A DNA stretch of 56,682 bases from positions 1 through 56,682 of IMG/VR virus record IMGVR_UViG_3300022929_000030, one strand, 5' to 3'. This DNA is from a virus. Lineage: Duplodnaviria; Caudoviricetes. Of the stretch, positions 16,276 to 46,621 are shown piece by piece (the stretch's first letter is position 1; each line of letters starts with the position of its first letter). The position numbers were made by a program, and so were the translations under genes. Under the pieces are notes generated by a model, which worked only from the letters and a program-made list of their open reading frames with translations, made no database searches and was not told the origin of the DNA.

Positions 16276-19050
16276 CTAGCGGAACATATTCCGGGCCGTC
16301 CCGTTTAAGCCCCCAATACCCGAAAGTGCATCCTGCGCCATGTTCTCAGGTGAATATTTCTCATACAAACTCTCCGCAGGAGGCACAACAACAGGCTGAC
16401 CCGTAACCTGATCTATCCTAACCTCCGCCGCACCCGTCGGAGTAGGTCGTGCCGTGGGCCGCGGACCCATTTCCGCGTATATCGGATTGACCCGCGCGGA
16501 CCCCGGACCACTATACATTACCATATCACTGCTGGCAGGCTCCAAAATCGTCTCCATAGCCGAAAATGACGCCGGAGACTGCTTAAACGCCGCCATTTCA
16601 CGCGGCTCATTCGGATTTACCCCCTGAACCGCCGCCACAACTTTAAGGGGATACCCCCTGTTTTCCTCACTAAGTGCAGACAACGGCTTGCCAGACGCTT
16701 TAAACTCCGCAAACTTGCCCGGACCAGCGTTATAGGCGCGTAAAGCATCCTCAGTCCGAGGAAACTTCTCCAACATCGCTTGCAAATACTGCGAACCCAA
16801 CTCAACATTAACTTCAGGTACAAACAACAATTGCCGTACCACCCTGTCACTCTTGTCATCAGTGTCATAACCAAGCCTTTCCGCAATCGTAAAAATATCT
16901 TCCACACCATAACCCGGCTTGCGGGCCGTGGAAGGACGTATCTGCATTAAACCTAACGCACCACTGCGCGTATTCTCCGCCTTCGGATCCCCCGAACTCT
17001 CCGCCATCACAACACCCTTAACAAGCGTTTGCAAAAAGTTCTTATCTACCTCACCACCATTTTTAAAGTTTTGAACCTGCGACGTATTTCGCTGAATAGT
17101 TTTGTTCCGCTCGTTAATTATATCCGCATATCGTTGCGCAGCCATTGCCTGTTCCGCAAACGTCGTAATGCCTTCCGGAGTGTTTTGCGGACCTTCGTTT
17201 AAATAGCGTTCTATTTCCGCACGGCCCTCTGTTTCCCTAAAAGCTTCCATAGACGTTGGAGACGGAGTAAATTTCTTGATGGATAAATCCGGACCAAAAG
17301 CTTGTTCTCCAGACATAGCGTTTTCGCGCACCGCATTTTGCATTAAAAGTAATCGCTCGGCAGGCGTTCTTGGCCGGCGCTCTTCGCGGTCAAAGGTAAA
17401 AAGAGGCGCATTAGGGTTGCTTAAAAAATACTGCGCACCACGGTTGATTGTTTCATCCTTTTCAAAACCCTCCGCAATTTTTTCATGCGCGTAACCAGAA
17501 TACTCAAAATCAGGATCGTTCACACGACGCTGACGGTCTTGCTGTTGGTCTAACTTATACAGTTCGAGAATTTTTAAATAATCTTCTTTAGATAAACCTA
17601 ACTTTTTTGCGGTAGGATACCCCTGTTCTACAATACGAAAAAGCCTTTCTAAACCACGATGCCGCATTTCATGCGCCGCAACTCCTTTTGAAGAATAATC
17701 TCCCGGACTAATTAATATCCTATCGTTGTTAGGGTTAAAATGAGAACCCTCCAACCTATTCTTTGAACGATCATACATCATGTCGTAATCAATTTTATTA
17801 ACGTCAAAACCCATTTTTGCCAACGGGTCCATATGCGGCTCTAAATCAGCGCGATACTCAATATCACCCAACGACGCATGGTCCACAACCCGACTAGCCG
17901 TGTCCACAACAGAACCACCATTGGCCATGTACTGCACATAACTGCCAATACCCCGCGGGCCGCGAGTCATGGCCCGCGCTGTCTCGTTTAAACTGCCAAT
18001 GCCAGACATAACTTCGCCGCCTTCTGCAAAACCGTCCGTTTTTCGGTAATAACCCTCGCGCATAGGAGTAATGTATTGTGGAAACTTCCTATCCGAAACT
18101 TCTCCTGTAGCAAAATCGCTAAACACAGTGCCGCCTCTGGACCGAATTTCTTCCGGCGTTTCTTTTGGTTTACGCAACCGCTGCTCTAAACCAAGCTCCG
18201 AAAAAGAATACGTTTGACCACTTTGAAGACCCCCAGTGTCTAATGTAGCCGGGCGCATCACTTCAATTCCGGCGGCCCGCGGTTTCGCTTTGGTCGTCAC
18301 CACAACAGGAACTTCGGGAATTCCTAACTCAATAGCCGCCTGTAACCGATGATGCCCCTCGCTAATACTTATTCCCCCGTCAGATAAAACTACTTCTACC
18401 TCAATGGGCTCTTTTATGCCTTCGTTAAAAATATTTTCTTTAAGGGTTTCCTGACCCGAAGCATCAAACTTTTCCTGCAAAAAAGGGTTTTCGCTAAGAT
18501 TCCCACTAGGTAAATCACCCCCAAACTTACCAACATCGTAGCGAGGAAAATTAAATTGAGCCACGTTGTCCGCAATGGTCTGCGTATCAACATACTCTAC
18601 CTTGGGGTTGTCAAAAGCCCGCTTTGGATGCGGTATTTTTTCCCGCTCCGCCGTTTCCAAAACCTGCTTGTTTATCTCGTTTGCACTCTTATTATCCGCT
18701 TTGCCCGAAAGAATAATACCGTCGATCTTTTCCGCAGGAATAATTTCAGATTTTCGCTTGTTTAAAAATTCCGATACAAAGTCCGGAGTCTTGCGAGCCA
18801 TCGTCTTAACCGCAGGACCAATCGCCGGCGCATAACCCAGCACCTCCGCTAAACTCATAAGACCCATTTGTAAATAATTAGGATCGTCCTGACGACCCTC
18901 CTGAACTATCTCCGATACCGCGTCCGCCGTACCAACAGGAGTAAAAGCTAACGCCTGATCCGCTACCCCAACACTCGCAGGCCGATCCTCGCGATAAGAC
19001 CCGTATAATGGATGAAACCGTTCAAAAAAACCTTCTGTATTAGCCATCAA
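16276..19050 (-). CDS. Multidomain internal virion protein: ParB-like domain, HExxH zincin-like domain, lytic transglycosylase (SLT)
   Basis: ParB/Srx-type motif GIKEPIEV...EGHHRLQAA...EVPVVV; HEMRH; SLT motifs AESSGDPKA...GALGLMQI...AYNAGPG. Confidence 0.8.
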   Translation of the reverse strand: MMANTEGFFERFHPLYGSYREDRPASVGVADQALAFTPVGTADAVSEIVQEGRQDDPNYLQMGLMSLAEVLGYAPAIGPAVKTMARKTPDFVSEFLNKRKSEIIPAEKIDGIILSGKADNKSANEINKQVLETAEREKIPHPKRAFDNPKVEYVDTQTIADNVAQFNFPRYDVGKFGGDLPSGNLSENPFLQEKFDASGQETLKENIFNEGIKEPIEVEVVLSDGGISISEGHHRLQAAIELGIPEVPVVVTTKAKPRAAGIEVMRPATLDTGGLQSGQTYSFSELGLEQRLRKPKETPEEIRSRGGTVFSDFATGEVSDRKFPQYITPMREGYYRKTDGFAEGGEVMSGIGSLNETARAMTRGPRGIGSYVQYMANGGSVVDTASRVVDHASLGDIEYRADLEPHMDPLAKMGFDVNKIDYDMMYDRSKNRLEGSHFNPNNDRILISPGDYSSKGVAAHEMRHRGLERLFRIVEQGYPTAKKLGLSKEDYLKILELYKLDQQQDRQRRVNDPDFEYSGYAHEKIAEGFEKDETINRGAQYFLSNPNAPLFTFDREERRPRTPAERLLLMQNAVRENAMSGEQAFGPDLSIKKFTPSPTSMEAFRETEGRAEIERYLNEGPQNTPEGITTFAEQAMAAQRYADIINERNKTIQRNTSQVQNFKNGGEVDKNFLQTLVKGVVMAESSGDPKAENTRSGALGLMQIRPSTARKPGYGVEDIFTIAERLGYDTDDKSDRVVRQLLFVPEVNVELGSQYLQAMLEKFPRTEDALRAYNAGPGKFAEFKASGKPLSALSEENRGYPLKVVAAVQGVNPNEPREMAAFKQSPASFSAMETILEPASSDMVMYSGPGSARVNPIYAEMGPRPTARPTPTGAAEVRIDQVTGQPVVVPPAESLYEKYSPENMAQDALSGIGGLNGTARNMFR

Positions 19051-29258: not shown

Positions 29259-29436
29259 GGACACGGATCGTTTTTTCGTGGGCCGTTGTCCGCGGTGTGA
29301 TGGCGAGGGTATTATTGAGGTTGAGGTTGCTATGCCCCATAATTTCAACCGGGACGTTGGTTATTTGGATGTTCGTCGTGAGCGTTGTTTGGACTGTGAT
29401 GGTTCTGGGGAGGTTGATCCGGGGGAGGGGTTGTGA
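29251..29436 (+). CDS. Small DnaJ-type zinc-finger protein
   Basis: CPRCDGEG...CLDCDGSG, two CxxCxGxG motifs. Confidence 0.75.
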   Translation: MAEDTDRFFVGRCPRCDGEGIIEVEVAMPHNFNRDVGYLDVRRERCLDCDGSGEVDPGEGL

Positions 29437-30083
29437 GTTTTGATGAGGATTTTAATTTAAAGGTAACTGTTCGCAATGGGAGGTTACTTCGTGCGATACG
29501 CGCGCGGTATTCTTCTGTTGCGGACATGTGCCGAAAGATGGGTCGTTCGCATCAGACGGTAAATAAGTTAATTACGATGAAGGCTGTTCCGTATAATTCG
29601 AAGGGTTGGACGGATTTAGCTTTGGACATTGCGGGGATGGTTGGCCGGGATCCGGGGGATTTGTGGCCGGATCATATGCGGGAGCTTCGTTTGCGGAAAT
29701 CGACATCGGAGGTTAATCTTGATTTGGACGACGTAAAGAAGTTGGTTCAGGAGGGTTCGTCGGAAAAGACTATATCGCAATTGAGTGCATTAAGTCAGTT
29801 TTCCAAGAACCTAACTTTTCGGGAGCGGGATGTTTTAGCTCGGCGGTTTGCGCATGACCAGAGTTTGGATGAGTGCGCTGCATCTTTGAGGGTTTCCCGG
29901 GAGCGGGTTCGTCAGATAGAGGCTAAGGCTTTTCGGAAGATGCGCAAGGTTGCGTCTAATTTGGGGTATATGGATGTTAATTACCCTGCGTGGGAGCCGT
30001 GGGATTGGAAAGCGGGGCGGGATCGTCGCTCGCGGCTTAAATTATCTCTTAAACCTCGTGGTCAAGATTTATTGGAGGATTGA
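29433..30083 (+). CDS. Transcription regulator with N-terminal HTH and C-terminal sigma70 region 4
   Basis: LTFRERDVLARRF...SLDECAASLRVSRERVRQIEAKAFRKMR is close to RpoD region 4.2; no region 2 is visible. Confidence 0.8.
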   Translation: MSFDEDFNLKVTVRNGRLLRAIRARYSSVADMCRKMGRSHQTVNKLITMKAVPYNSKGWTDLALDIAGMVGRDPGDLWPDHMRELRLRKSTSEVNLDLDDVKKLVQEGSSEKTISQLSALSQFSKNLTFRERDVLARRFAHDQSLDECAASLRVSRERVRQIEAKAFRKMRKVASNLGYMDVNYPAWEPWDWKAGRDRRSRLKLSLKPRGQDLLED

Positions 30084-30279
30084 ATGAAATATGAAAAATG
30101 GACAACGGACCGCGTTAAATTGTTAGAAAAATATTGGCGTGACGATTTAATGTCGGCGAGTGAAATTGCTCGAAAATTAGGAAATACATCACGAAATGCG
30201 GTGATTGGTAAAATCCATAGGATGGGAATTTCTGGTCGAAAATCTCCTTCTCACCATTTATTGGAGGATTGAATGAAAT
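30067..30279 (+). repeat. 24-bp perfect direct repeats flanking gcrA
   Basis: ATTTATTGGAGGATTGAATGAAAT at 30067-30090 and 30256-30279. Confidence 0.92.
30084..30272 (+). CDS. gcrA: GcrA cell-cycle regulator, N-terminal HTH domain only
   Basis: WTTDRVKLLEKYW...SASEIARKLGNTSRNAVIGKIHRMG is the GcrA signature. Confidence 0.88.
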   Translation: MKYEKWTTDRVKLLEKYWRDDLMSASEIARKLGNTSRNAVIGKIHRMGISGRKSPSHHLLED

Positions 30280-30539
30280 TAAATAATAAAAAATTAATTG
30301 AGTTAAGAAAAGAGCGGGGCATAACGCAAAAAACGATGTCCAAGGATCTTAACTTACAGCAGGCTAATCTTTCTCGTTATGAAAGCGGCTCGGTTCAAAA
30401 CCCCTCTGCGGCGGTGGTTAAAGCGATAGCTAATTACCTTGAGTGTCATATGGACGATCTTCTTTTAACCGGCGAGGAGCTTGTTCAGCCTATTCCCAGC
30501 AGGGTTGATGTTCATATTTACGTTCATTGGGGGAAGTAA
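30273..30539 (+). CDS. XRE-family HTH regulator
   Basis: LIELRKERGITQ...LSRYESG...IANYLEC. Confidence 0.85.
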   Translation: MKLNNKKLIELRKERGITQKTMSKDLNLQQANLSRYESGSVQNPSAAVVKAIANYLECHMDDLLLTGEELVQPIPSRVDVHIYVHWGK

Positions 30540-31365: not shown

Positions 31366-31516
31366 GTTGAAGTGGTTACGTCGTCAGGTTGATACTTTAG
31401 ATCAGGAGCGTTTTCGTGAGGATGCGCGGCCCAACATCCAGCGCGAGTTATTCACTGCGCGCGAGGAGTTGGACCAATTTGTGCGCGGCTTGCGCGTGAA
31501 TGGTTATTTAATTTAG
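31316..31516 (+). CDS. Hypothetical protein
   Basis: 66 aa, AGGAGG RBS; converges on the graspetide-like operon. Confidence 0.7.
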   Translation: MDDQKERKALTTFQQAELKWLRRQVDTLDQERFREDARPNIQRELFTAREELDQFVRGLRVNGYLI

Positions 31517-32979
31517 AACAGCGCGGTTCTATTACCGCCGCCTCCGCCCCCGGCTGCGGCACCTAGCAGCGATCCGAATGGTGATGCGCCGCCTGTTCCG
31601 GCTGGTGCGGGTTGGGCTTGCATTTGTTGCCCGTTTGGAGATGCGTTTTGCATATCAAACATTTGTTGATTTTGTGCGTTTTGTCGGTTTTGCATACCAA
31701 ACAATTGGTCTTGGGGGCCAAAGCCTCCCCCGCCGCCTTTACCGCCCGGTTGCTGGTACGGTTGTTGATATGGTTGTTGATATGGTTGCTGCGGCATGAA
31801 CGGCTGCGGCTGGAAGCCTCCCCCGCCACCTTTACCTCCTCCGCCAAATCCACCGCCATATGGCTGTGGTTGGTACATGGGCCGCGGCTGGTAAGGCTGT
31901 TGGTATGGTTGTGGTTGAAAGCCGCCGCCAAACCCGCCTCCATAACCGCCAAATCCGCCGCCCATGAATGGGTTAGGCGGTCTTTGGTACGCGGGGGGTT
32001 GTTGGAAGCCGCCACCGCCTTTTCCATTACCGCCGGGGAGGGGCATTGGTGGCCGCGGTTGTGGTTGCGGGAATAATCCGGGTGGCGGGAATAATCCGGG
32101 TGGGTGCATGTCGGGAGGCGTTGGTTGGCCGGGAAATCCGGGCTGGCCTTCTTCTTCGCCCATGGCTTGGGTTGTGACTCCGCCCATTGGGGGTGGGAGT
32201 TGACCGGGGGGTCCGCCCGTTTCCTCGCCCATAGCCATGGTTGTGAGTTGCCCTTGGCCCGGTCCGTCGGGTGGAAAAGCGACGCTGTCGCCTCCGCCGG
32301 GAAACGGGTTTTCCCCGGTTTCTTCGCCTACGGCCATGGTTGTGGCTATGGCGCCTCCGAAGTTTCCATCTTCTCCTATGGCTCGGGTAAAGGCATTAGG
32401 GTTATTTGGCTGCAACATAGAATTGTCTTCGCCTATGGCCCGCGTGTTGGCTACTCCGGCGCCGGGTAATTCAACTAATGGTGCTGGCGTTTGATTGTTT
32501 TCAAACCCCAATGCTGCGCGTGTTATTTGGTTTTGTGGTAACATAAAATTTCCTCCGTCTGGCACGGGTTGGGCGGTAAGGGGGTTTGCCTGCCCTAGTT
32601 GTGCTTGCGTTACGCCAGCCGGTGGGGCGGGAACAACCCCTCCGGCATTGGCTTGCTGGTATTGCTGGTTAAAGTTGTTAATGAATTCGTTATCGGTTTC
32701 TAACCCTGTTTTATGACGAAGGAGCGGGGTAACGTCTCCCATACTTATTTCACCGTCTTGGTTTACATCAAACCGTAAGTCTTGTTCCGTGTTTCCAACG
32801 ATCATTTGCAATAAATTTTCGGCGTTAAGCGGGTTTGCTACGCCATATAATTCGTCGTTAGTAAAAGCCATATTGTTTGCACCGGGCCCGGTAAGAGGCC
32901 CGTTTGGCCCTGTTCCAGCAAAACCCCCGGTTTCCTCGCCTACGGCCATGGTTGTGGCCATCCCGAATAAATTTTCCAT
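31513..32979 (-). CDS. Putative graspetide precursor-like protein: 4x TTxxxxEE cores, dockerin-like motif, Q/P/G-rich tail
   Basis: TTMAVGEE (twice), TTMAMGEE, TTQAMGEE, plus two TRAIGED variants; DVNQDGEISMGD Ca-binding-type motif; 9 nt downstream of an ATP-grasp gene. Confidence 0.75.
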   Translation of the reverse strand: MENLFGMATTMAVGEETGGFAGTGPNGPLTGPGANNMAFTNDELYGVANPLNAENLLQMIVGNTEQDLRFDVNQDGEISMGDVTPLLRHKTGLETDNEFINNFNQQYQQANAGGVVPAPPAGVTQAQLGQANPLTAQPVPDGGNFMLPQNQITRAALGFENNQTPAPLVELPGAGVANTRAIGEDNSMLQPNNPNAFTRAIGEDGNFGGAIATTMAVGEETGENPFPGGGDSVAFPPDGPGQGQLTTMAMGEETGGPPGQLPPPMGGVTTQAMGEEEGQPGFPGQPTPPDMHPPGLFPPPGLFPQPQPRPPMPLPGGNGKGGGGFQQPPAYQRPPNPFMGGGFGGYGGGFGGGFQPQPYQQPYQPRPMYQPQPYGGGFGGGGKGGGGGFQPQPFMPQQPYQQPYQQPYQQPGGKGGGGGFGPQDQLFGMQNRQNAQNQQMFDMQNASPNGQQMQAQPAPAGTGGASPFGSLLGAAAGGGGGGNRTALF

Positions 32980-32988
32980 GCCGCACCC

Positions 32989-33750
32989 TTATTTAAGGTT
33001 AGCGCGCAAGCTTTCTGCTAATTTGCCCGCAACCACGTTATTAAACGCCGCAAACATGGGGTTGGAATTAATCTCTAAAAACCACGTTTTGTTGCCATCA
33101 TCTATAAAGTCGGCGGCGCCAAACGTAAGATTTATCTTGCCCATAAGTTTACGCACTTGCGGGACTATAGCATGATCTATTTTAGAAACAAAGAGGGATG
33201 GGTTAGGGTCGTCCCGGTAGTCGAGATGCGTGGACGCCAGCCCGAAGACAAAGATATCGTCGCCAATAACAAAGAGGCGCTTATTAAGGCCGTCTATGCG
33301 CTGTTGCAGAATGACGGGGTAATCGGCCCGTGAGCCGTGGGCGGCGTGCGCTCCACCGGTAATGGGTTTTATTATGGTATCTGGCCGTCCTGTTTCTATT
33401 CCGGCTTCTGTATCGGGGACATGTAGTCCGCATTGTTTGGCTAGGACAAGGTTTTTTAGTTTATATGGTGTTTCTTGCTCGTAATTAGGATTGTATTGTT
33501 TTATGTTTGGGTGCGCGCGAACGTAGTTTGATATCAGATACGCGTTGGCATACATTGTCCAATTGTTTTCTGCGAAGACGTTTGCGCGCCCGAAGCTTGC
33601 ATTAAAATTAATTTCATGGCCGTCCACTGTTAGTGTGTCGGTAGTTATGTCCCAGTGTAAGTTTTGGGATTGGTCTACGAACAGATCAAAGTGGCTGCGC
33701 AGCGCGGCAATATTGGGGTCGGACATTTGCCCAAAGAGTAAAGCGGTCAT
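32989..33750 (-). CDS. ATP-grasp ligase (RimK superfamily, graspetide synthetase-like)
   Basis: K...AKQCGLHVPDT, IIKPITGG, ILQQRIDG, RLFVIG, LDYR, FGAADF, FLEINSNP. Confidence 0.88.
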   Translation of the reverse strand: MTALLFGQMSDPNIAALRSHFDLFVDQSQNLHWDITTDTLTVDGHEINFNASFGRANVFAENNWTMYANAYLISNYVRAHPNIKQYNPNYEQETPYKLKNLVLAKQCGLHVPDTEAGIETGRPDTIIKPITGGAHAAHGSRADYPVILQQRIDGLNKRLFVIGDDIFVFGLASTHLDYRDDPNPSLFVSKIDHAIVPQVRKLMGKINLTFGAADFIDDGNKTWFLEINSNPMFAAFNNVVAGKLAESLRANLK

Positions 33751-34037
33751 CTGGGGCGCAGGGTTTCTATGCCGGCGACACGGAAAGCTTCTTCCGTTTC
33801 TTTTTTAACGGCTTCTTCCAGAATTCTTTCGGCTTCTTCTTTTCTGGCTTGTCTGTTTTTGCGGACCTGAGACTTTAGCACGCGCATATCGTTTTCTGAA
33901 AGGTTTCCATTCTTCCAGAAATCAAACATCATGCGCAGCTGGCCGCCAATGGTGCGGCCTTCTATAAAAGCAACGGCGACTAATTCCTCGTAGGTTTCGC
34001 GCGGAACCAGTACGCTTTTCCATTTTTTGGTATCCAT
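33747..34037 (-). CDS. Putative ribbon-helix-helix-type regulator
   Basis: MDTKKWKSVLVPRETYEEL...EGRTIGGQL; ATGA overlap with the ATP-grasp gene. Confidence 0.6.
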   Translation of the reverse strand: MDTKKWKSVLVPRETYEELVAVAFIEGRTIGGQLRMMFDFWKNGNLSENDMRVLKSQVRKNRQARKEEAERILEEAVKKETEEAFRVAGIETLRPR

Positions 34038-34095: not shown

Positions 34096-34144
34096 AAAAA
34101 ACCCCCTTTCCGTTGCAGTGCGAATCCTAGCCGGGAAAGGGGGT
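34096..34144 (-). terminator. Terminator-like hairpin downstream of the DNA polymerase
   Basis: Minus strand ACCCCCTTTCC...GGAAAGGGGGT followed by TTTTT; large loop. Confidence 0.6.
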
Positions 34145-34230
34145 AGTTGCGTGCGGGGCTCCAAGTGCTTTATTTGGAGAAAAAGAACAATGAGGGAAGC
34201 CCCCGCCACAGGCATATAGAGTCAAGCAGT

Positions 34231-41506: not shown

Positions 41507-42958
41507 ATGTACAGATTTAAAACAGAGCCGTATGACCATCAGCGTACCGCGTTCAATGACTCGTGGGCCGCGGAGTATTACGCGTTGTTTATGGAAATGG
41601 GAACGGGGAAAACCAAGGTCGCCATTGATACCATTGCCGCGTTGTACGAAGAAGGCCGTATAGACGCTGCTTTAATACTGGCACCAAAAGGAGTTTATGA
41701 CAACTGGGTGCAGGGAGAAATTCCTATTCATTTGCCGGACCGCATTGAGCGCGAGGTTCTGCGCTGGCAAGCCAACGCCACTAAAGGGTTTAAAGAAAAG
41801 CTGCGCAACTTTGCCATTCCGAGCAAAGACCGCAAGCCTATGCTGCGCTTGTTTGTTATGAACATTGAGGCCCTGTCTACGGGTAAAGGCGCGGATACCG
41901 CTTGCGACTTTTTGCGACTAAACAAGAATTCTATTATGGTCGTGGACGAAAGCACCACAATTAAAAACCGCCAAGCCCAGCGCACAAAGAACGTCGTAAA
42001 ATGTGGTCGCTTGGCTAAGTATCGCCGGATCCTGACAGGCTCCCCAATTACTAAGTCCCCTATGGACCTTTTTAGCCAATGCGATTTTTTGGAGGAACGA
42101 TGCCTTGGATTTAACAGCTATTATGCGTATCAAAGCCGCTACGCCGTAGTACAAAAACGTACCATGGGACACCGCAGCTTCCAAGAAATTACGGGCTACC
42201 AACGGCTGGACGAGCTTAACACAAAGCTAGACCGCATTAGCAACCGGGTGTTGAAAGAAGACTGCTTAGACTTGCCTGAAAAGGTGTATATTAGTCGGCG
42301 CGTACCGCTCACCAAAGAGCAGGAAACGGCGTATATACAAATGAAAAAGCTGGCCTTGGCTCAGCTGGAAAATGGCGAACTAGCCACAACGCAATCGGTC
42401 TTGACGCAAATCATGCGCCTGCAACAAATATGTTGCGGCTTTCTGCGCACCGATGACGAAGAAATAGTAGCATTACCTAACAAACGTCTGGATGAACTTA
42501 TGTCCATCGTAGACGAGCTTCAGGGTAAGGCAATCATCTGGGCAACGTGGACACACGACATACATATGATTGCTGATGCCCTGCGCCGCCGCTTTGGCCC
42601 AGAAGCGGCGGCAACTTATTACGGAGGCACGCCTCAAGACGAACGGCAGCAAATTGTTACCGACTTCCAAAACCCTAACTCTCCGTTGCGGTTCTTTATT
42701 GGCCAGCCAAAAACCGGGGGCTACGGCATTACTTTAACCGCCGCTCAAACCATGATCTACTATTCCAACAGCTATGATCTGGAAATACGGCTACAGTCCG
42801 AGGACCGCGCGCACCGGATTGGGCAAAAGGGAACAGTAACGTATATTGATTTAATGGCGCCAAAAACCATTGACGAAAAAATCATTAGCGCCCTGCGCGA
42901 CAAAATTGATATTGCCGGCAAGGTGCTGGGGGAAAATGCAAAGCAGTGGCTTATCTAG
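41507..42958 (+). CDS. SNF2-family (SF2) helicase
   Basis: True start 41507 (MYRFKTEPYDHQ) after AGGAG; MEMGTGKT, VVDES, LTGSP, GYGITL, QSEDRAHRIGQ. Confidence 0.92.
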   Translation: MYRFKTEPYDHQRTAFNDSWAAEYYALFMEMGTGKTKVAIDTIAALYEEGRIDAALILAPKGVYDNWVQGEIPIHLPDRIEREVLRWQANATKGFKEKLRNFAIPSKDRKPMLRLFVMNIEALSTGKGADTACDFLRLNKNSIMVVDESTTIKNRQAQRTKNVVKCGRLAKYRRILTGSPITKSPMDLFSQCDFLEERCLGFNSYYAYQSRYAVVQKRTMGHRSFQEITGYQRLDELNTKLDRISNRVLKEDCLDLPEKVYISRRVPLTKEQETAYIQMKKLALAQLENGELATTQSVLTQIMRLQQICCGFLRTDDEEIVALPNKRLDELMSIVDELQGKAIIWATWTHDIHMIADALRRRFGPEAAATYYGGTPQDERQQIVTDFQNPNSPLRFFIGQPKTGGYGITLTAAQTMIYYSNSYDLEIRLQSEDRAHRIGQKGTVTYIDLMAPKTIDEKIISALRDKIDIAGKVLGENAKQWLI

Positions 42959-45900
42959 CGCCCTGTTGCTGCTGTTGCTGCTGTTGTTGAGCGTTGATTA
43001 GCCCCGATACGGGGTCGTTGGGGAACATAGTAGCGTAATTTGCTCGCATGTTTGGATTGCCGCCTCCAGCCGCCGGGGGAGGAGCCTGCACCGGCGGCTG
43101 GGCTCCCGGCGTCGCAGGAGGCGCGGCATTTGGGAGTGGTGCCGGTGCCGCCTGCGGAGGAGTATTAATACTTTGTAGGTATTGCTCAAGTTCCGCCGTG
43201 GACGGCGCCGCGTTAGCCGGAGACACAAGATTAGGAAGCGTTAAATTAAATTGCGCATTCTGTATTTGCTCTTCCGTCGGAGTTAGCCCGGCGTTAATAA
43301 GCGCAGAATTAAGTTGTCTGTTCAATCGAATGCTTTTGTTTCCAGCGGAAGCGTTAAGCCCCTTATTAATAAGCAATTCCATCGTCGCCGGATTACGCGC
43401 GGCTTCTTGTAGCAAATCGTTAAAATATGTGTTGGGCATATGCTGAAACTTATTACGCGCAAATTGAATACCCGTTGAAGCTTCGACTAGACCCTGTGTC
43501 CGCCCGGTAAGCTTAGATATTTGCGCCCCTATACCAAGGCCGCCGATGCGAACAACAAGGTCATAAATAGCAGAAGGGGCGTCTTTAAGTTTGTAATTTC
43601 CGCGTTCTCCGTTTACTATTGCGTCTTCAATAAAAGTCGCCTCGCGCAAAATGGTATTAAGTCTTGTTGCTTCCGCATCCGAAAACAAGCCTTGTTGCCG
43701 CATAATGCCCATTACAGACTGCTGCCCCCGGGCTAACGGCTTAAACAAATAATCCCGATACGCTTTAAAACTCATTTTGTCATCTGCGCCGCCGGCAAAA
43801 GCATACGCATGATCTAAAATAGCGTCTCGCAAACCCGCCGCCACCTCGGGACTTGTTTGCGTAGCGGCTTTTGCCGCAGCATTTAAGTTTGAAGCAGGGT
43901 TCTTTGGGCGGTTGCCGGGAGAACCAATTAACGTCCCAACCCCCGCGGCAGGCGTTTCCGCATTGCCTAAAAACGCAGAAAGAGCAAGTTGGTTGTCGAG
44001 CCCCTTTCTAAACAGGCTGTCCTCTTTTCTAGCATCTGCCAACAACTTCTGCGCCGTTACCGAATTTGTTAAGTCGTCTTTCAATGATTGAAACATACTT
44101 AACGCTTCGTCATTTTGGCGCATCCATGCGGTCAAACCGTTCATGTTTACGCGGTCCGTTGCAGGGTTATAAAAGTTTGACGCCTGCCCTCGCAGCATTG
44201 TTTCTTGCGCGCCACGCACTGTGCCCAGACGCGCGGCCGCACTATCTGCAAAGTCTTCTCCCGCATTGTCCGCCATGAACCGTGCGGCGTCTTGAATTTG
44301 CAACAGCTTTAAATTAGTAGCGTTGGCACTCCCGCGCATAACTGTGTCAAAAACCAATTCAGGGGGTAGTTTTGCCGCTCCGGTTCTGCTTTTTCCCAAT
44401 ATATCGCCACTAAACGCCCGCGTGAAAACGTCGTTTAAAGACCGACTAAAATTATGGGCCGCCTGCAAGTTCAATTGGTTTTGAGTTTTAGGGCCTATTG
44501 TTTGAGAAGCTAACCCTAAATCATCCAGAGCCGCCTCTGCCATTTGGCCATAAAAATTACTGTCGCGGTAATTTCCCGCGGCCCGTGCGTCGCGGGCCAT
44601 AGAAAGCATTTCGCTGCGAAATCTTGTTAAATCGCCAACTGTTACATCTGGCGCGTCGGGAGCGCGGGCCGCTTCCGCCGCTTGAGATTCTTGTAAACGC
44701 GCAGAGTAGTTTCGCTGATACGCTTGTGTATCAATTACCTTTTGCTCGGCTTGTAAAAAATCAATTAATCGTTCTGCGTGAGACGCCACACGAGCGCGCT
44801 CAACCGCGGACAAATCACTGCCCACAACGTCGAGCCCTTTTTCCCGATAATTTCCTGCAACATTGGCTAAGTCTCTTATTACGGTGTCAAAGCTGCCTAA
44901 ATCTGACTTTATTTCAGCGATGATTGCGTTCATGTCCATGCCGTAAGCAAGAGCGCCGTCTACGCGGTCCGCGGCACCGGGGTATTTAGTTTCAAATTCT
45001 TGAAATTTGTCTTTTCTTTTATCTGCAATCGAGCGCAACCGACTTATTTCGTCTTGCGTTTCCCGGTAGCCAACAACAAAAGCATCCTCCACGGTTTCCA
45101 TGTCGCGGCCAGAAACTCTATTAACAAAACGTGTAATAAGCGAGGGAAAAGGACTTTCCGGTAATAAATCTGCACGAATTTTGTCAAACGCTGCAACCAC
45201 ACTTCCTGCCGCAGCGGGCTCAGTTTTGTCCACACGCGTATAGAGAATTCTCTCTTGGTCGCGCGCTTCCGTTAATACTTGACGCGTTTGCGTTTCAATA
45301 ACTTCCCCTGCTTTTTTCGCCGCGGTAGGCGTAGTGGAGATAATATTGCCCGCAGTGTCCGCGGCTTTGCCTTCCACTTGATTTAACCGAGATTGTAGAA
45401 GCTCTTCATATATGTTGCGCTGCATCGTTGCGGCCGCTTCCAAAAGACTCGGATCGTCCATGGCAATCATTAAATCCACCATTTTGGTCATGGCGGTAAG
45501 GTTTTGTAAGGACGCCCGTTCCAACGTAGGTCCAGATTTTAAATCGGCAGCAATATCTGCTTGCAACTTTGCTAAAGTAGGGGACAAAGCTTTGCCCGCC
45601 GCAGTAGTCGTGTCTAAATCCACGCCGGCGTCTGCGGCTAATGTGGCTAATTCTCTGTCCGACTGCAACGCTTTTAAAACTGCCGTAGGGTCTTCGCCGG
45701 CGTCTTCTAAAATCTTCACAACTTTAGTTCCAAGACGTTTGTATCGGCCTTCGGTGGTTAGTGTAGACAAAGCTGTTTTTAAGGGTTGAATAACCGGCGC
45801 AGTTATTCGGAGTATTTGCGCAGGGTTAAATATAGCCCCTGTAATTTCTGCGGAAGTACGCTTTAAAACATTTCCGGGATCAAGCTCTTCCGACAGGCCG

Positions 45901-46619
45901 CCTGCCAACGCCGAGGTTCCTGCCGCTCCTGTTTCTATGGCCGCAAAAGACATGGGCCGCGTCATTGCTGTTTCCAACACTTGTTCAACAGGAGTAGCCG
46001 CAATAGGTTTTCCGCCTTGTTTTTTAACAAACTCCCGAATGTGCATGGCTGGCCCAAGGGCCGCGTTCCGTGAAGCGGCTAAATACGGAACAGGTAACGG
46101 TAAGATGCCTCCGCCAAAGGTACGGCCGCCTTCGTATAGCCCCCGGCGCAAAGGTGCTTCGGGAAAGAAATATTCGTTAAGCTCGTTAGTGAGATACCCT
46201 CCGGTTAAAGCTCCCGCTATGGTGGTAGCCCCTAAAACAACGGGCGCCGTAACAGGCGCCGCGGGAGGAAATGCTGCGCTGGCTGCGGCAGCAAGGGGAA
46301 CACCCGCCTTAAAACCGCCGTAAGCGCCAAGACCCATTCCTCCTGTTTCAGTCATTCCTCGGTTAATGCCCTCCGCCAAAGTGGCTAAGGCCCCGGGATC
46401 GCGGACGGTGGAAAGATGCGAGATGACGTCTAGGTTTTTGATACCGGCTTCACGTGCGCCGGCGATATCATATTGTGTTTCAGCGGCCAAATAGTCGGCT
46501 ATTTCCGCATCGGTAAGCCCCGCTTCGCGGGCCGCGTTGTAATCATAGTCAATTTTTTTTGGTTGCAGCGCCTCGGCGGCTTGAATTGTAGGGCCTAACT
46601 GAACATTAGTGTCGGTCAT
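42951..46619 (-). CDS. Large internal virion / DNA ejection protein
   Basis: 1222 aa, Ala-rich and helical; N-terminal duplicated YDxxxAREAG motif; hydrophobic Gly/Ala segment; last gene of the tail operon. Confidence 0.7.
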   Translation of the reverse strand: MTDTNVQLGPTIQAAEALQPKKIDYDYNAAREAGLTDAEIADYLAAETQYDIAGAREAGIKNLDVISHLSTVRDPGALATLAEGINRGMTETGGMGLGAYGGFKAGVPLAAAASAAFPPAAPVTAPVVLGATTIAGALTGGYLTNELNEYFFPEAPLRRGLYEGGRTFGGGILPLPVPYLAASRNAALGPAMHIREFVKKQGGKPIAATPVEQVLETAMTRPMSFAAIETGAAGTSALAGGLSEELDPGNVLKRTSAEITGAIFNPAQILRITAPVIQPLKTALSTLTTEGRYKRLGTKVVKILEDAGEDPTAVLKALQSDRELATLAADAGVDLDTTTAAGKALSPTLAKLQADIAADLKSGPTLERASLQNLTAMTKMVDLMIAMDDPSLLEAAATMQRNIYEELLQSRLNQVEGKAADTAGNIISTTPTAAKKAGEVIETQTRQVLTEARDQERILYTRVDKTEPAAAGSVVAAFDKIRADLLPESPFPSLITRFVNRVSGRDMETVEDAFVVGYRETQDEISRLRSIADKRKDKFQEFETKYPGAADRVDGALAYGMDMNAIIAEIKSDLGSFDTVIRDLANVAGNYREKGLDVVGSDLSAVERARVASHAERLIDFLQAEQKVIDTQAYQRNYSARLQESQAAEAARAPDAPDVTVGDLTRFRSEMLSMARDARAAGNYRDSNFYGQMAEAALDDLGLASQTIGPKTQNQLNLQAAHNFSRSLNDVFTRAFSGDILGKSRTGAAKLPPELVFDTVMRGSANATNLKLLQIQDAARFMADNAGEDFADSAAARLGTVRGAQETMLRGQASNFYNPATDRVNMNGLTAWMRQNDEALSMFQSLKDDLTNSVTAQKLLADARKEDSLFRKGLDNQLALSAFLGNAETPAAGVGTLIGSPGNRPKNPASNLNAAAKAATQTSPEVAAGLRDAILDHAYAFAGGADDKMSFKAYRDYLFKPLARGQQSVMGIMRQQGLFSDAEATRLNTILREATFIEDAIVNGERGNYKLKDAPSAIYDLVVRIGGLGIGAQISKLTGRTQGLVEASTGIQFARNKFQHMPNTYFNDLLQEAARNPATMELLINKGLNASAGNKSIRLNRQLNSALINAGLTPTEEQIQNAQFNLTLPNLVSPANAAPSTAELEQYLQSINTPPQAAPAPLPNAAPPATPGAQPPVQAPPPAAGGGNPNMRANYATMFPNDPVSGLINAQQQQQQQQQGAR

Positions 46620-46621
46620 CT

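What the first reader, a model, noticed from the sequence alone, without database searches (positions are those of the whole stretch)
31513..34037. Phage-encoded plesiocin-type graspetide (omega-ester RiPP) system: ATP-grasp ligase plus a multi-core TTxxxxEE substrate
Seen in sequence: a three-gene minus-strand unit of a small regulator, an ATP-grasp ligase (ATGA overlap), and a 488-aa protein starting 9 nt later. That protein has four exact TTxxxxEE octamers: TTMAVGEE at 32955-32932 and 32343-32320, TTMAMGEE at 32244-32221, and TTQAMGEE at 32175-32152. It also has two (N/F)TRAIGED variants near 32448-32368. The ligase has a D-Y-R motif after RLFVIG, where microviridin and plesiocin synthetases carry DWR/DFR. 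Established knowledge: TTxxxxEE is the core repeat of plesiocin (group 2 graspetides); its ATP-grasp enzyme PsnB forms Thr-Glu side-chain esters, giving bicyclic hairpins that inhibit serine proteases. Inference: the phage macrocyclises its own protein, possibly to inhibit host proteases (including protease-based anti-phage defences) or to stabilise a virion protein. I do not know of a characterised phage graspetide pathway, but I could not search the literature.
Basis: partly seen in the sequence, partly recalled or inferred. Interest (0 to 1): 0.95.

Follow-up and report, generated by a model that had tools for sequence, protein, structure and literature searches.

The report
Phage-encoded plesiocin-type protein macrocyclase system
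A marine phage carries a compact relative of the bacterial enzymes that staple peptides into small side-chain rings, next to its own large protein bearing six copies of the matching target motif, so the phage probably ring-staples its own protein, something not yet described for viruses.

Summary
On the minus strand lie a 96-aa RHH-like ORF (33747-34037), a 253-aa ATP-grasp ligase (32989-33750, ATGA overlap) and, 9 nt later, a 488-aa protein (31513-32979). All six xTxAxGE[D/E] cores of the window lie in that protein (0.04 expected by chance).

The ligase belongs with graspetide macrocyclases, not RimK. PsnB, the plesiocin synthetase, is its best sequence and fold match. PsnB's Arg72, Arg213 and DFR loop align with invariant R55, R158 and D177-Y178-R179.

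Its nearest relatives are bacterial PsnB-like ligases; 74 of 80 loci examined carry TTxAxGEE arrays.

About 27 ligase clusters occur in marine viral contigs. Of 41 loci, 18 have core arrays in the next gene. In 6 of 10 other records the cores lie about 10 kb away, some in virion-type proteins. Five cultured relatives have neither ligase nor arrays.

Across 81 cores the inner Thr is invariant, and Glu at position 8 occurs only with Thr at position 1, as plesiocin's ring-within-ring topology predicts.

What is new: phage-encoded, a compact ligase truncated in the leader-binding segment, no recognisable leader, and large phage protein substrates. The chemistry and the role (protease inhibition or stabilisation) are untested. 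No prior description was found.

The parts
32989..33750 (-). 253-aa compact ATP-grasp ligase of the graspetide-macrocyclase lineage (PsnB-like). Key residues: R55 (FGRANVF, 33594-33574), K97, R158 (NKRLFVIG, 33285-33262), D177-Y178-R179 (LDYRDDP, 33225-33205), E226/N228 (FLEINSNPMF, 33081-33052).
   Evidence: Searches give the family and fold matches. One search gives the AF2 model (pLDDT 94.6). Searches show the invariant columns., read with the PsnB preprint passages, map R55, R158 and DYR to PsnB Arg72, Arg213 and DFR233-235.
31513..32979 (-). 488-aa substrate protein. It has an N-terminal core, a dockerin/EF-hand-like loop, an array of five cores in G/P-rich linkers, and a G/P/Q-rich low-complexity C-terminal 203 aa.
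   Evidence: One search gives the ORF. Searches give cores and composition. One search gives Dockerin_1 at E 0.13, below cut-off, and one search gives dockerin-type Atlas leads at 0.78. Both are leads only.
32932..32955 (-). Core 1, TTMAVGEE (residues 9-16), two-ring type
32425..32448 (-). Core 2, NTRAIGED (residues 178-185). Only the inner Thr/Glu pair is present.
32368..32391 (-). Core 3, FTRAIGED (residues 197-204). Only the inner Thr/Glu pair is present.
32320..32343 (-). Core 4, TTMAVGEE (residues 213-220), two-ring type
32221..32244 (-). Core 5, TTMAMGEE (residues 246-253), two-ring type
32152..32175 (-). Core 6, TTQAMGEE (residues 269-276), two-ring type
32731..32769 (-). Dockerin/EF-hand-like loop DVNQDGEISMGDV (residues 71-83) in the substrate protein
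   Evidence: Dockerin_1, E 0.13, below cut-off. A similar loop occurs in a 769-aa multi-core protein of viral locus L181. Lead only.
33747..34037 (-). 96-aa ribbon-helix-helix-like ORF whose stop overlaps the ligase start (ATGA). It is probably a backbone gene that follows the DNA polymerase, and is not shown to belong to the system.
   Evidence: One search gives the start and RBS. One search gives ESM Atlas CopG/RHH/Arc leads at 0.91-0.94. One search finds homologues beside the ligase in 20 other loci, but on the opposite strand. They are absent from the HMO-2011-type loci.
34105..34150 (-). Terminator-like hairpin (CCCCCTTTCC ... GGAAAGGGGG, then a T run) between the DNA polymerase stop and the three-gene unit. 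Coordinates are approximate and read by eye.
   Evidence: Read from the sequence. The scan did not list it, because the loop is longer than the scan allows.

Best explanation
The window is most of the genome of an uncultured marine podovirus of the HTVC023P pelagiphage type. It encodes a compact (253-aa) ATP-grasp ligase that descends from the bacterial PsnB-like (plesiocin, group 2) graspetide macrocyclases.

Inferred mechanism, by analogy with PsnB. The ligase uses ATP to phosphorylate the gamma-carboxylate of the invariant Glu at core position 7. The invariant Thr at position 2 then attacks and forms a six-residue side-chain lactone. In cores that read TT....EE, a second ester joins Thr1 to Glu8, giving a ring-within-a-ring hairpin.

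The substrate is the phage's own 488-aa protein encoded 9 nt downstream. It has four two-ring cores and two one-ring cores, so up to 10 esters are expected.

Unlike the bacterial systems, no leader or follower peptide is evident. The segment that binds the leader in PsnB is truncated in the phage enzyme. I therefore infer that the enzyme recognises the strongly conserved core directly.

In related phages the same ligase serves cores embedded in virion-type proteins: a homologue of HMO-2011 gp25 in the structural module, and an SLT-transglycosylase protein.

My preferred role, at about 40% given the chemistry, is that the stapled hairpins are protease-inhibiting and protease-resistant modules. 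The variable loop residue (Met, Arg, Gln or Leu) would set the specificity. They would protect or arm phage proteins against host or environmental serine proteases.

Shown: homology, conserved catalytic residues, co-occurrence and covariation. Inferred: ester formation, leader independence and the role.
For: Phage context. Portal, TerL, PolA, helicase and primase are present. TerL is 61-62% identical to phage 023Pt_psg01 and Pelagibacter phage HTVC027P.

Ligase placement.
- The window ligase hits four NCBIfam models at E <= 1, all graspetide maturases.
- A profile of the family hits 6 of 6 graspetide ligases in the PDB. PsnB is best at 5.5e-14.
- The AF2 model has pLDDT 94.6. Its best Foldseek hits are PsnB (9e-15, TM 0.75), PruB, AMdnB and MdnC, with RimK only from rank 25.
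- In the tree, 25 of 25 phage-family rows form one clade (SH-aLRT 91), separated from the RimK outgroup by a branch with support 99.

Catalytic residues. The PsnB preprint (passages) names Arg72, Arg213 and the D(F/W)R loop as conserved in graspetide macrocyclases. The HMM alignments put invariant R55, R158 and D177-Y178-R179 of the phage family on them. These residues are invariant in 24 of 24 rows and 25 of 25 rows.

Nearest cellular relatives. The representative search gave 7 full-length near-family rows at E <= 1e-84. After a gap come about 140 further rows, mostly 265-300 aa, at 1e-47 to 1e-30. In species genomes, 274 of 278 candidates were confirmed and all 80 loci kept were bacterial. 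Of those 80 loci, 74 hold TT....EE and 73 hold xT.A.GE[DE]. In the loci whose hit positions I could see, these are arrays just upstream of the ligase, with exceptions such as L144 and L156, where they lie downstream. The profile of that group hits PsnB at 1.2e-34 over its full length.

Co-occurrence in viruses. Of 41 viral loci with the ligase, 18 have one to seven cores in the gene immediately downstream. Three loci are cut at the ligase. Of the 20 without cores within about 4 kb, I searched 10 whole records. Six have clusters of 2-3 matches and the reversed-pattern control gave 0. That is 5 of 5 records of 23.9 kb or more and 1 of 5 shorter fragments. The cores there lie in proteins of 229-681 aa. 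Pfam found an SLT domain in the one I scanned (L044, 5e-23), and L045 and L046 carry the same SLT sequence by eye.

Co-absence. In HMO-2011-type loci the ligase sits exactly between the gp26 and gp25 homologues, and the array is inserted in gp25. HMO-2011 gp25 itself has the same N-terminus but no array. Five cultured relatives have 0 of 5 ligase matches (positive controls). Their motif counts are 0, 0, 1, 0 and 0.

Reverse test. The DNA pattern for TTMAVGEE found 16 stretches in IMG/VR. Fourteen lie in multi-core arrays and 7 are on contigs known to hold the ligase. The two isolated single matches lie on records without the ligase.

Ring topology. In 81 distinct cores, Thr2 is present in 81 of 81 although Ser was allowed. 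Gly6 and Glu7 were fixed by the search pattern. Ala4 is present in 71 of 81. Glu8 occurs only with Thr1 (26 of 26; 0 of 44 cores without Thr1). This is what an inner T2-E7 ring plus an optional outer T1-E8 ring predicts. It matches the order reported for PsnB, where Thr32-Glu37 forms first.

Role. Plesiocin inhibits elastase and chymotrypsin at nanomolar Ki, and changing one loop residue to Arg adds trypsin inhibition (review passage). Makarova et al. 2022 state that all characterised graspetides are protease inhibitors (passage).
Against: - No chemistry has been shown. Nothing here demonstrates ATP-dependent dehydration.
- The ligase is 40-70 aa shorter than the bacterial enzymes. Its NCBIfam scores (47 bits) are far below the curated cut-offs (230-475), and no Pfam family reaches its threshold. 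A changed or lost activity is not excluded.
- No leader was found. In PsnB the leader activates the enzyme, so a leaderless mechanism is an assumption.
- Two of the six window cores lack the outer pair.
- Four of 10 ligase-bearing records searched whole showed no cores. All four are fragments of 6-10 kb.
- None of the 9 newly found TTMAVGEE stretches shows a ligase in the DNA held: 7 with arrays and 2 isolated singles. Of the 7 with arrays, 6 are whole contigs of 11 kb or less, and L176 is a cut from a 19-kb, 35%-complete record without a ligase.
- The loci are not independent; several are near-identical. The Fisher p is therefore not a true probability, and at least one of the 81 cores is probably a chance hit.
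- In the window the pair lies in the replication/early region, not the structural module, and the 488-aa protein has no detectable homologue in cultured phages. A virion location is therefore unsupported for this phage.
- Some bacterial precursors of the sister group are also large, up to 694 aa, so 'protein substrate' is not unique to phages.
- Contigs from RNA libraries cover the operon, but they cover the whole 13 kb alike, so transcription is not shown.
Confidence: 0.75

Rival explanations
1. The chemistry is the same (side-chain esters) but the purpose is structural. The staples, possibly including intermolecular Thr-Glu links between neighbouring chains, would rigidify or covalently knit virion, internal-core or ejection proteins. 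That would be an enzyme-made analogue of capsid chainmail. No protease would be targeted.
For: In relatives the cores sit in virion-type proteins: a gp25 homologue in the structural module after the tail fibres and an SLT-domain protein. The graspetide ligase ThfB can cyclise whole proteins and cross-link assembled chains in vitro (abstract of PMC12291112). The cores are separated by flexible G/P-rich linkers of 14-25 aa.
Against: The T1/E8 covariation within single 8-residue cores points to intramolecular hairpins. An 8-residue ring in a disordered G/P linker adds little rigidity. The loop residue varies between Met, Arg, Gln and Leu within one array, as expected for specificity-determining P1 positions and not for a structural staple. 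The window's substrate lies outside the structural module.
Confidence: 0.2
2. The modified protein, or fragments of it, is a released product rather than a virion or intracellular factor. It would be liberated at lysis and act outside the cell like bacterial graspetides, for example against extracellular proteases, grazers or competing microbes.
For: In the window the pair forms its own small unit behind a terminator-like hairpin, outside the structural module. The substrate is a dedicated multi-core protein resembling the bacterial multi-core precursors of 47-694 aa with 1-23 cores. All characterised graspetides are protease inhibitors (passage).
Against: The three-gene unit holds no peptidase or exporter gene. 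The surrounding ORFs scanned gave no such family, though only the larger ORFs were scanned. In two other genome arrangements the cores are built into large virion-type proteins. The C-terminal PFGx[F/Y] tail seen in 62 of 74 bacterial precursors is not at the C-terminus of any phage substrate seen.
Confidence: 0.1
3. The ligase performs a different ATP-grasp reaction on the acidic GE[D/E] sites, such as adding amino acids (RimK- or TTL-like glutamylation). Alternatively it acts on a host target, and the Thr residues are not nucleophiles.
For: Pfam's only weak hits are YheC/D (E 0.02) and TTL (E 0.15), and PHROGs gives an 'S6 glutaminyl transferase' family at 9e-06. The fold is also similar to RimK (1.8e-11). 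The enzyme lacks part of the central domain of characterised macrocyclases.
Against: Sequence searches find only graspetide ligases. Arg213, Arg72 and the DFR loop, which the PsnB preprint calls conserved in graspetide macrocyclases, are conserved. Thr2 is invariant at a fixed distance from Glu7 in 81 of 81 cores, and Thr1 covaries with Glu8. A glutamylase would not require either. The sister clade pairs with plesiocin-type cores.
Confidence: 0.05
4. The ligase and the repeats are unrelated neighbours. The octamers would be a linker or metal-binding repeat of low-complexity phage proteins.
For: The substrate is rich in G, P and Q low-complexity sequence. Nine stretches holding the TTMAVGEE pattern show no ligase in the DNA held.
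Against: Presence and absence are linked across three different genome arrangements and two phage backbones. The same motif is paired with the sister ligases in 73-74 of 80 bacterial loci. Chance expectation in the window is 0.04.
Confidence: 0.03

Closest known systems
Plesiocin system of Plesiocystis pacifica: PsnB ligase with the PsnA2 precursor (group 2 graspetide / omega-ester peptide)
   Same: PsnB is the best sequence and fold match. The core has the same shape, T-T-x-x-x-G-E-E in tandem copies. The invariant Arg and D-aromatic-R residues are shared. The inner Thr/Glu pair is the invariant one, in line with PsnB's order of ring formation.
   Different: - Only about 20% identity in the structural alignment.
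- The phage enzyme has 253 aa, against 334 aa for the deposited PsnB chain, which by my offset estimate includes about 20 extra N-terminal residues.
- An 11-residue deletion falls where PsnB holds the leader-binding residues R192 and I193, and the critical Leu196 aligns with a non-conserved position (inferred from the alignment and the passages). The AF2 model has no helix between strands 125-128 and 141-150.
- The substrate has no N-terminal leader with an LFIEDL-type motif. In some relatives the first core starts at residue 2-4.
- The substrate is a 488-aa phage protein, and the ligase gene precedes it.
- Variant one-ring cores (xT.A.GED) occur, as do K-T-x-A-x-G-E-D-D cores in relatives.
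Uncharacterised bacterial PsnB-like clusters (cyanobacteria such as Moorena, Okeania and Crocosphaera; Acidobacteriota; Longimicrobium; Thiothrix; myxobacteria) found here as the sister group
   Same: These are the closest relatives of the phage ligase: 26-35% identity, profile E 1e-47 to 1e-30. They share the invariant columns. Their cores, TT[LMQ]A[VLI]GEE, have the same Ala and Gly.
   Different: - The bacterial ligases are mostly 265-300 aa.
- In the loci whose positions I saw, the precursor usually lies upstream of the ligase.
- Cores are packed 10-12 aa apart, against 14-25 aa in phages.
- 62 of 74 precursors end in P-[FWL]-G-x-[FY], and no phage substrate does.
- The outer pair is nearly always T...E.
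- An A3 profile scan of IMG/VR returned only the compact phage family (30 loci at 26-33% identity plus one 43-residue end fragment at 48%) and no ~290-aa sister-type ligase.
Microviridin ligases MdnB/MdnC (group 1 graspetides) and CdnC
   Same: The same enzyme superfamily and the same general chemistry. They match at 1e-7 to 1e-11.
   Different: A different core (TxRxPSDxDE). Microviridin uses two ligases for esters and an amide, has a cage rather than a hairpin topology, and depends strictly on a leader.
RimK (poly-alpha-glutamate ligase of ribosomal protein S6)
   Same: ATP-grasp fold; Foldseek 1.8e-11.
   Different: The window ligase has no RimK hit at E <= 1 in NCBIfam or the PDB. RimK is an outgroup in the tree. 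RimK extends a C-terminus and does not cyclise.
ThfB (fuscimiditide ligase) used to cyclise and cross-link whole proteins in vitro
   Same: It shows that a graspetide ligase can act on full-length proteins (abstract of PMC12291112).
   Different: That is an engineered use with a leader-bearing scaffold. Here protein substrates appear to be the natural ones.

Membership tests
Graspetide (omega-ester peptide) biosynthetic systems | ATP-grasp ligase homologous to the known macrocyclases (MdnB/C, PsnB, CdnC and others) | tested here: met
   the four NCBIfam hits at E <= 1 are all graspetide maturase models (best 1.5e-12); 6 of 6 PDB hits are graspetide ligases. PsnB is the top fold match; the family forms a clade apart from RimK.
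Graspetide (omega-ester peptide) biosynthetic systems | Residues conserved in graspetide macrocyclases: PsnB Arg72, Arg213 and the D(F/W)R loop | tested here: met
   R55, R158 and D177-Y178-R179 are invariant in 24 of 24 rows and 25 of 25 rows. They align with PsnB chain R92, R233 and D253-F254-R255, which is the paper's numbering plus 20. The mapping rests on HMM alignments, not on a superposition.
Graspetide (omega-ester peptide) biosynthetic systems | A cognate substrate with a conserved core holding Thr/Ser/Lys and Asp/Glu at fixed spacing, genetically linked to the ligase | tested here: met
   Six cores lie in the gene 9 nt downstream. Linkage holds in 18 of 41 viral loci and in 6 of 10 further whole records. 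Five ligase-less relatives lack the cores.
Graspetide (omega-ester peptide) biosynthetic systems | A leader (or follower) peptide that binds and activates the ligase | tested here: inconclusive
   No conserved leader was seen. Cores start at residue 2-9 in several substrates. The N-terminal 65 aa of the gp25-type substrates is also present in ligase-less HMO-2011. No phage substrate has a C-terminal PFGx[F/Y]. The leader-binding segment is truncated in the ligase. Absence of a cryptic recognition element cannot be proved in silico.
Graspetide (omega-ester peptide) biosynthetic systems | Side-chain lactone or lactam rings actually formed (-18 Da per ring, ATP-dependent) | not testable with these tools
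   This needs mass spectrometry of co-expressed or in vitro-treated protein. The only indirect support is the Thr1/Glu8 covariation.
Graspetide (omega-ester peptide) biosynthetic systems | RiPP logic: the core is released from the precursor by a protease and exported as a small peptide | tested here: not met
   The unit holds no peptidase or transporter gene, and none was found among the neighbouring ORFs scanned. Substrates are 355-1061-aa proteins with other domains. It therefore works like a graspetide system but looks like a protein modification, not a small natural product.
Group 2 (plesiocin-type) graspetides | Tandem TTxxxxEE cores giving two nested Thr-Glu esters each | tested here: met
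   Four of the six window cores are exact TTxxxxEE. The two others keep only the inner pair. The nested topology is inferred from covariation only.
Group 2 (plesiocin-type) graspetides | Ligase closest to PsnB among characterised enzymes | tested here: met
   The similarity is distant: 55 bits for the phage profile against 123 bits for the bacterial sister profile.
NCBIfam TIGR04187 / TIGR04184 / TIGR04185 / TIGR04192 (curated graspetide maturase families) | Score above the curated cut-off | tested here: not met
   47.3, 18.1, 26.2 and 23.1 bits against cut-offs of 350, 475, 425 and 230. It is not a member of any curated subfamily.
RimK / glutathione synthetase type ligases | Best similarity to RimK or GshB models | tested here: not met
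   NCBIfam gives no RimK or GshB hit at E <= 1 for the window ligase. The profile search finds none in the PDB. RimK is an outgroup in the tree.

The most novel reading that the evidence does not exclude
Marine podoviruses carry a leader-independent minimal macrocyclase. It installs nested Thr-Glu ester hairpins (and, in relatives with K-T-x-A-x-G-E-D-D cores, perhaps a Lys-Asp lactam) directly into their own large proteins. These include internal or ejected virion proteins. Each particle would thus deliver an array of covalently stapled protease-inhibitor modules with mixed specificities (Met, Arg, Gln and Leu loops) into the host envelope at infection. The modules would shield the ejection machinery or disarm protease-based host responses. 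This would be the first enzyme-installed side-chain macrocycle in a virus particle and the first viral graspetide pathway.
Probability: 0.3. Interest if true: 0.92.

Novelty: new variant of a known kind. Interest (0 to 1): 0.82.

Why it matters
- Graspetides are known as small bacterial protease inhibitors. The census I could read (Makarova et al. 2022, PMC8939145) has no occurrence of 'phage' in its main text, and it set aside several large proteins that matched the motifs. A ligase family confined to viral contigs, about 505 sequences in 27 clusters, would move this chemistry into virus biology.
- Because it acts on the phage's own large proteins, some of them virion-type, it would add a new kind of post-translational modification to phage proteins.
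- The enzyme is the smallest of its lineage seen here and seems to do without a leader. That is what peptide and protein engineers want from a macrocyclase.
- The phages belong to very abundant marine groups (HTVC023P-type and HMO-2011-type), so the trait may matter ecologically.
- The claim can be tested directly with two genes and a mass spectrometer.

Tried and rejected
Searches of cultured phages
- blastn of the unit, and tblastn of the ligase and of the 488-aa protein, against 50,697 cultured-phage records gave no match. The low-complexity filter may hide weak matches to the substrate.
- Pfam and PHROGs on the substrate-type proteins found only an SLT domain in L044.

Minor analyses
- tRNA scan: none found.
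- The promoter/terminator scan was no better than shuffles.
- BLASTP of the window's own SLT protein (16276-19050) against the core-bearing SLT protein of L045 aligns only the SLT domain, at 31% identity. They need not be orthologues.
- The ESM Atlas search of the substrate gave only dockerin-type leads at 0.78, below the level at which they count.

RNA evidence
- Contigs of four RNA libraries (X14, X16, X17, X19) lie on the ligase and substrate genes. They cover the whole 13-kb stretch alike, and DNA carry-over cannot be excluded, so I draw no conclusion on expression. I also draw none from bins without cover.

Records without a match
- The four ligase-bearing fragments without cores, and the array-bearing contigs without a ligase in the DNA held, are too short to count for or against.

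Tree
- One outgroup row (L159_out) was a mis-picked 261-aa antisense ORF.
- Two bacterial rows (L106_bac, L142_bac) sit on a 3.5-long branch and are probably mis-picked too.
The statement that the phage family is one clade apart from RimK does not depend on these rows. The position of the phage clade among the bacterial ligases is unresolved.

Literature
- Searches: graspetide + phage (22 papers, 17 listed, none on a phage-encoded system); omega-ester + ATP-grasp + bacteriophage (1 paper, unrelated); graspetides/viral/ATP-grasp/core motif; ATP-grasp/pelagiphage/HTVC023P/HMO-2011; phage-encoded + RiPP + ATP-grasp (0 papers); RiPP/antiSMASH/phage genomes.
- One search was badly designed and is of no use.
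- I read passages only, not whole texts, of PMC11118758, PMC8939145, the PsnB preprint, PMC10125368, PMC11626197, PMC10580990, PMC9599517 and PMC9038755. For PMC12291112 I read the abstract and outline.
- Lee et al. 2017 and 2020, Ramesh et al. 2021 (PMC8688276) and Iyer et al. 2009 (PMC3268129) are not held. What I say of them is recalled or taken from citing papers.
Supplementary tables of the graspetide censuses could list viral or prophage members that I could not see.

Rejected readings
- RimK- or TTL-like glutamylase, and a chance neighbourhood; see the rival explanations.
- I also considered the small RHH-like ORF as a dedicated regulator of the system. I left this open because its homologues lie on the opposite strand in the other arrangement and are absent from the HMO-2011-type loci.

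Full report
**What is in the window**

The window is a phage genome or most of one. It holds a portal, large terminase, family A DNA polymerase, helicase and primase. No tRNA was found. The terminase is 61-62% identical to those of phage 023Pt_psg01 and Pelagibacter phage HTVC027P, and 54% identical to HTVC023P.

On the minus strand the DNA polymerase gene ends at 34231. A hairpin followed by a T run comes next (read by eye). Three tightly packed genes follow:
- a 96-aa ORF starting at the ATG at 34037;
- a 253-aa ATP-grasp protein whose ATG overlaps that ORF's stop (ATGA);
- a 488-aa protein, 9 nt after the ligase stop.

They are the only six matches to T.A.GE[DE] in all six frames of the 56.7-kb window. 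Shuffled residues give 0.04 matches per window and 0.001 per protein. The D-Y-R after RLFVIG is at residues 177-179.

**The ligase is a graspetide-type macrocyclase**

- Pfam gives nothing above threshold.
- The window ligase's four NCBIfam hits at E <= 1 are all graspetide maturase models. The best is 1.5e-12, far below the curated cut-offs.
- A database search found 27 clusters of about 250-aa relatives at 40-99% identity, from marine metagenomes. I aligned 24 of them (A1).
- The A1 profile finds six PDB sequences at E <= 1. All are graspetide ligases: PsnB 5.5e-14, AMdnB, MdnB, PruB, CdnC and MdnC. It finds no RimK.
- An AlphaFold model from A1 is confident, with pLDDT 94.6. Its best structural matches are PsnB (E 9e-15, TM 0.75), PruB, AMdnB and MdnC. 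RimK appears only from rank 25.

The PsnB preprint (passages) names Arg72, Arg213 and the D(F/W)R loop 233-235 as conserved in graspetide macrocyclases. In the HMM alignments the PDB chain numbering is the paper's plus 20. There these residues align with R55, R158 and D177-Y178-R179 of the phage protein. All are invariant in A1 and in a wider alignment, A2.

**Origin of the phage enzyme**

An exhaustive profile search shows 7 full-length near-family rows at E <= 1e-84. After a gap come about 140 further listed rows, mostly 265-300 aa, at 1e-47 to 1e-30. In species genomes that second group is bacterial: cyanobacteria, Acidobacteriota, Longimicrobium, Thiothrix and myxobacteria. There, 274 of 278 candidates were confirmed and 80 loci were kept.

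Of those 80 loci, 74 hold TT....EE and 73 hold xT.A.GE[DE]. In the loci whose positions I could see, these are arrays just upstream of the ligase, with cores such as TTLAVGEE spaced 10-12 aa apart. There are exceptions, such as L144 and L156, where the cores lie downstream.

The profile of this group matches PsnB over its full length at 1.2e-34. These are therefore plesiocin-type clusters.

In IMG/VR the same profile returned only the compact phage family: 30 loci at 26-33% identity plus one 43-residue end fragment at 48%.

In a quick maximum-likelihood tree the 25 phage-family rows form one clade (SH-aLRT 91). It is separated from a RimK outgroup by a branch with support 99. Its place among the bacterial ligases is unresolved. 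Three rows of that tree were probably mis-picked ORFs, as noted under Tried and rejected.

**Ligase and cores travel together**

Of the 41 viral loci with the ligase:
- 18 have one to seven cores in the gene immediately downstream;
- 3 are cut at the ligase;
- 20 have none within about 4 kb.

I searched 10 of those 20 records whole with a degenerate DNA pattern for T-x-A-x-G-E-[D/E]. Six have tight clusters of 2-3 matches about 10 kb from the ligase, and the reversed-pattern control gave none. The four without are fragments of 6-10 kb. The clustered cores lie in proteins of 229-681 aa. Pfam found an SLT transglycosylase domain in the one I scanned (L044), and L045 and L046 carry the same SLT sequence by eye.

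In another set of loci the substrate is a homologue of gp25 of Puniceispirillum phage HMO-2011, a gene of the structural module just after the tail fibres. There the ligase sits exactly between the gp26 and gp25 homologues, and the core array is inserted after the conserved N-terminal 65 residues.

HMO-2011 and Roseobacter phage CRP-1 have no ligase, no array in gp25 and no motif match in their genomes. The three closest cultured relatives of the window phage also have no ligase. Their motif counts are 0, 0 and 1.

A reverse search for DNA encoding TTMAVGEE found 16 stretches in IMG/VR. Fourteen are in multi-core arrays, and seven are on contigs already known to hold the ligase. The two isolated singles are on records without the ligase.

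The loci are not all independent. Even so, the same pairing recurs in three genome arrangements and two phage backbones.

**The cores themselves carry a signature of the ring topology**

Among 81 distinct cores from viral loci (a few are probably chance hits):
- Thr at position 2 is present in all 81, although the search pattern also allowed Ser. Gly6 and Glu7 were fixed by the pattern.
- Ala4 is present in 71 of 81.
- Position 3 is Met, Arg, Gln or Leu.
- Position 1 is Thr (37), Lys (22) or a hydrophobic residue.
- Position 8 is Asp (55) or Glu (26).

Glu8 occurs only together with Thr1: 26 of 26, and 0 of the 44 cores without Thr1. Lys1 always has Asp8, and 17 of those 22 have a further Asp.

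This is what one expects if Thr2-Glu7 is the obligatory inner ring and Thr1-Glu8 an optional outer ring. It matches the order found for PsnB, where Thr32-Glu37 forms first. Relatedness of the sequences inflates the statistics, so I treat this as supportive rather than as proof.

**How the phage system differs from the bacterial ones**

- The enzyme is 40-70 residues shorter.
- One 11-residue deletion falls on the PsnB segment that holds the leader-binding residues Arg192 and Ile193. The critical Leu196 aligns with a non-conserved position. The model shows only a loop there.
- I found no leader. Cores begin at residue 2-9 in several substrates. The gp25 N-terminus is shared with ligase-less phages.
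- The C-terminal P-[FWL]-G-x-[FY] tail of 62 of 74 bacterial precursors is not at the C-terminus of any phage substrate I saw.
- The substrates are 355-1061-aa proteins with other domains.
- No protease or exporter gene accompanies the pair among the ORFs I scanned.

It therefore works like a group 2 graspetide system, but it looks like a protein modification rather than a small natural product.

**What it is for remains inference**

Plesiocin is a nanomolar inhibitor of elastase and chymotrypsin, and one loop residue sets its specificity (review passage). All characterised graspetides are protease inhibitors (passage). The phage arrays mix Met-, Arg-, Gln- and Leu-type loops.

Combined with the virion-type substrates in relatives, I favour protease-inhibiting or protease-resistant modules on phage proteins. 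Structural stapling and a released product are the main rivals. For the window phage itself the pair lies next to the replication genes, and nothing shows that the 488-aa protein is in the particle.

**The small upstream ORF**

ESM Atlas leads point to a ribbon-helix-helix protein. Its homologues lie beside the ligase in the other HTVC023P-type arrangement, but on the opposite strand, and they are missing from the HMO-2011-type loci. It is more likely a backbone gene after the polymerase than a dedicated partner.

**Novelty**

Six usable literature searches found no phage-encoded graspetide. In the graspetide census I could read, 'phage' does not occur in the main text, and several large proteins matching the motifs were set aside. 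Key subscription papers and all supplements were not available to me.

I rate this a new variant of a known kind, with high interest. The decisive experiment is simple: two genes, ATP and a mass spectrometer.

Noticed in passing
window 29433-30539 (+): A plus-strand block of regulators converges on the substrate gene: a 216-aa protein with sigma-70 region 4 (PF04545, 1.6e-14), a 62-aa GcrA-like protein (PF07750, 2e-17) and an 88-aa HTH_3 protein. From my own knowledge, GcrA is an alphaproteobacterial cell-cycle regulator, so it hints at an alphaproteobacterial host. That fits the pelagiphage-like terminase.
   Followed up: partly
L078-L157 (bacterial loci), precursor C-termini: 62 of 74 precursors of the bacterial PsnB-like sister group end in P-[FWL]-G-x-[F/Y], for example NPFGNF or SPFGRY. 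This may be a follower-type recognition or export signal. The window protein has an internal SPFGS at 31570-31584, 19 residues from its end, which could easily be chance in a G/P/F-rich tail.
   Followed up: partly
window 31765 (within the low-complexity tail of the substrate gene): A contig of RNA library X14 carries an in-frame 24-nt insertion here, and other runs show small indels nearby. The Q/P/Y-rich repeat region therefore varies in length between strains.
   Followed up: no
L010, L011, L013, L015-L019, L029, L033, L039, L040, L176 (gp25-type substrates): Cores of the form K-T-x-A-x-G-E-D(-D) occur only in the HMO-2011 gp25-type substrates. Lys1 always pairs with Asp8: 22 of 22, of which 17 have a second Asp. 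A Lys-Asp lactam in place of the outer ester is conceivable.
   Followed up: partly
window 16276-19050 (-): A 924-aa protein combines ParB-like N-terminal matches with an SLT transglycosylase domain. It carries none of the cores, unlike the SLT proteins of related ligase-bearing phages.
   Followed up: partly
window 42951-51972 (-): Three consecutive large ORFs (1222, 1028 and 754 aa) have no Pfam or PHROG family above threshold.
   Followed up: no
L181:3262-5568 (+), L168, L169, L177, L047: Other multi-core proteins share modules. One is a repeated domain around 'NYAYP.KFAEGGEV...LGNDMVLV.F.DG...TQKAL'. In L181 there is also a dockerin-like loop (DVDLRYDVTGDGEISSRD) resembling residues 68-83 of the window protein. 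The cores seem to be a cassette that moves between different phage proteins.
   Followed up: no
W05 (Pelagibacter phage HTVC023P) 45417-45436 (+): A single isolated match to the degenerate core pattern occurs in a ligase-less genome. I did not check its frame or context. It is probably chance.
   Followed up: no
window 32500-32526 (-): ITRAALGFE (residues 152-160) looks like a degenerate seventh core, with one extra residue before the Gly and Phe in place of Glu.
   Followed up: no
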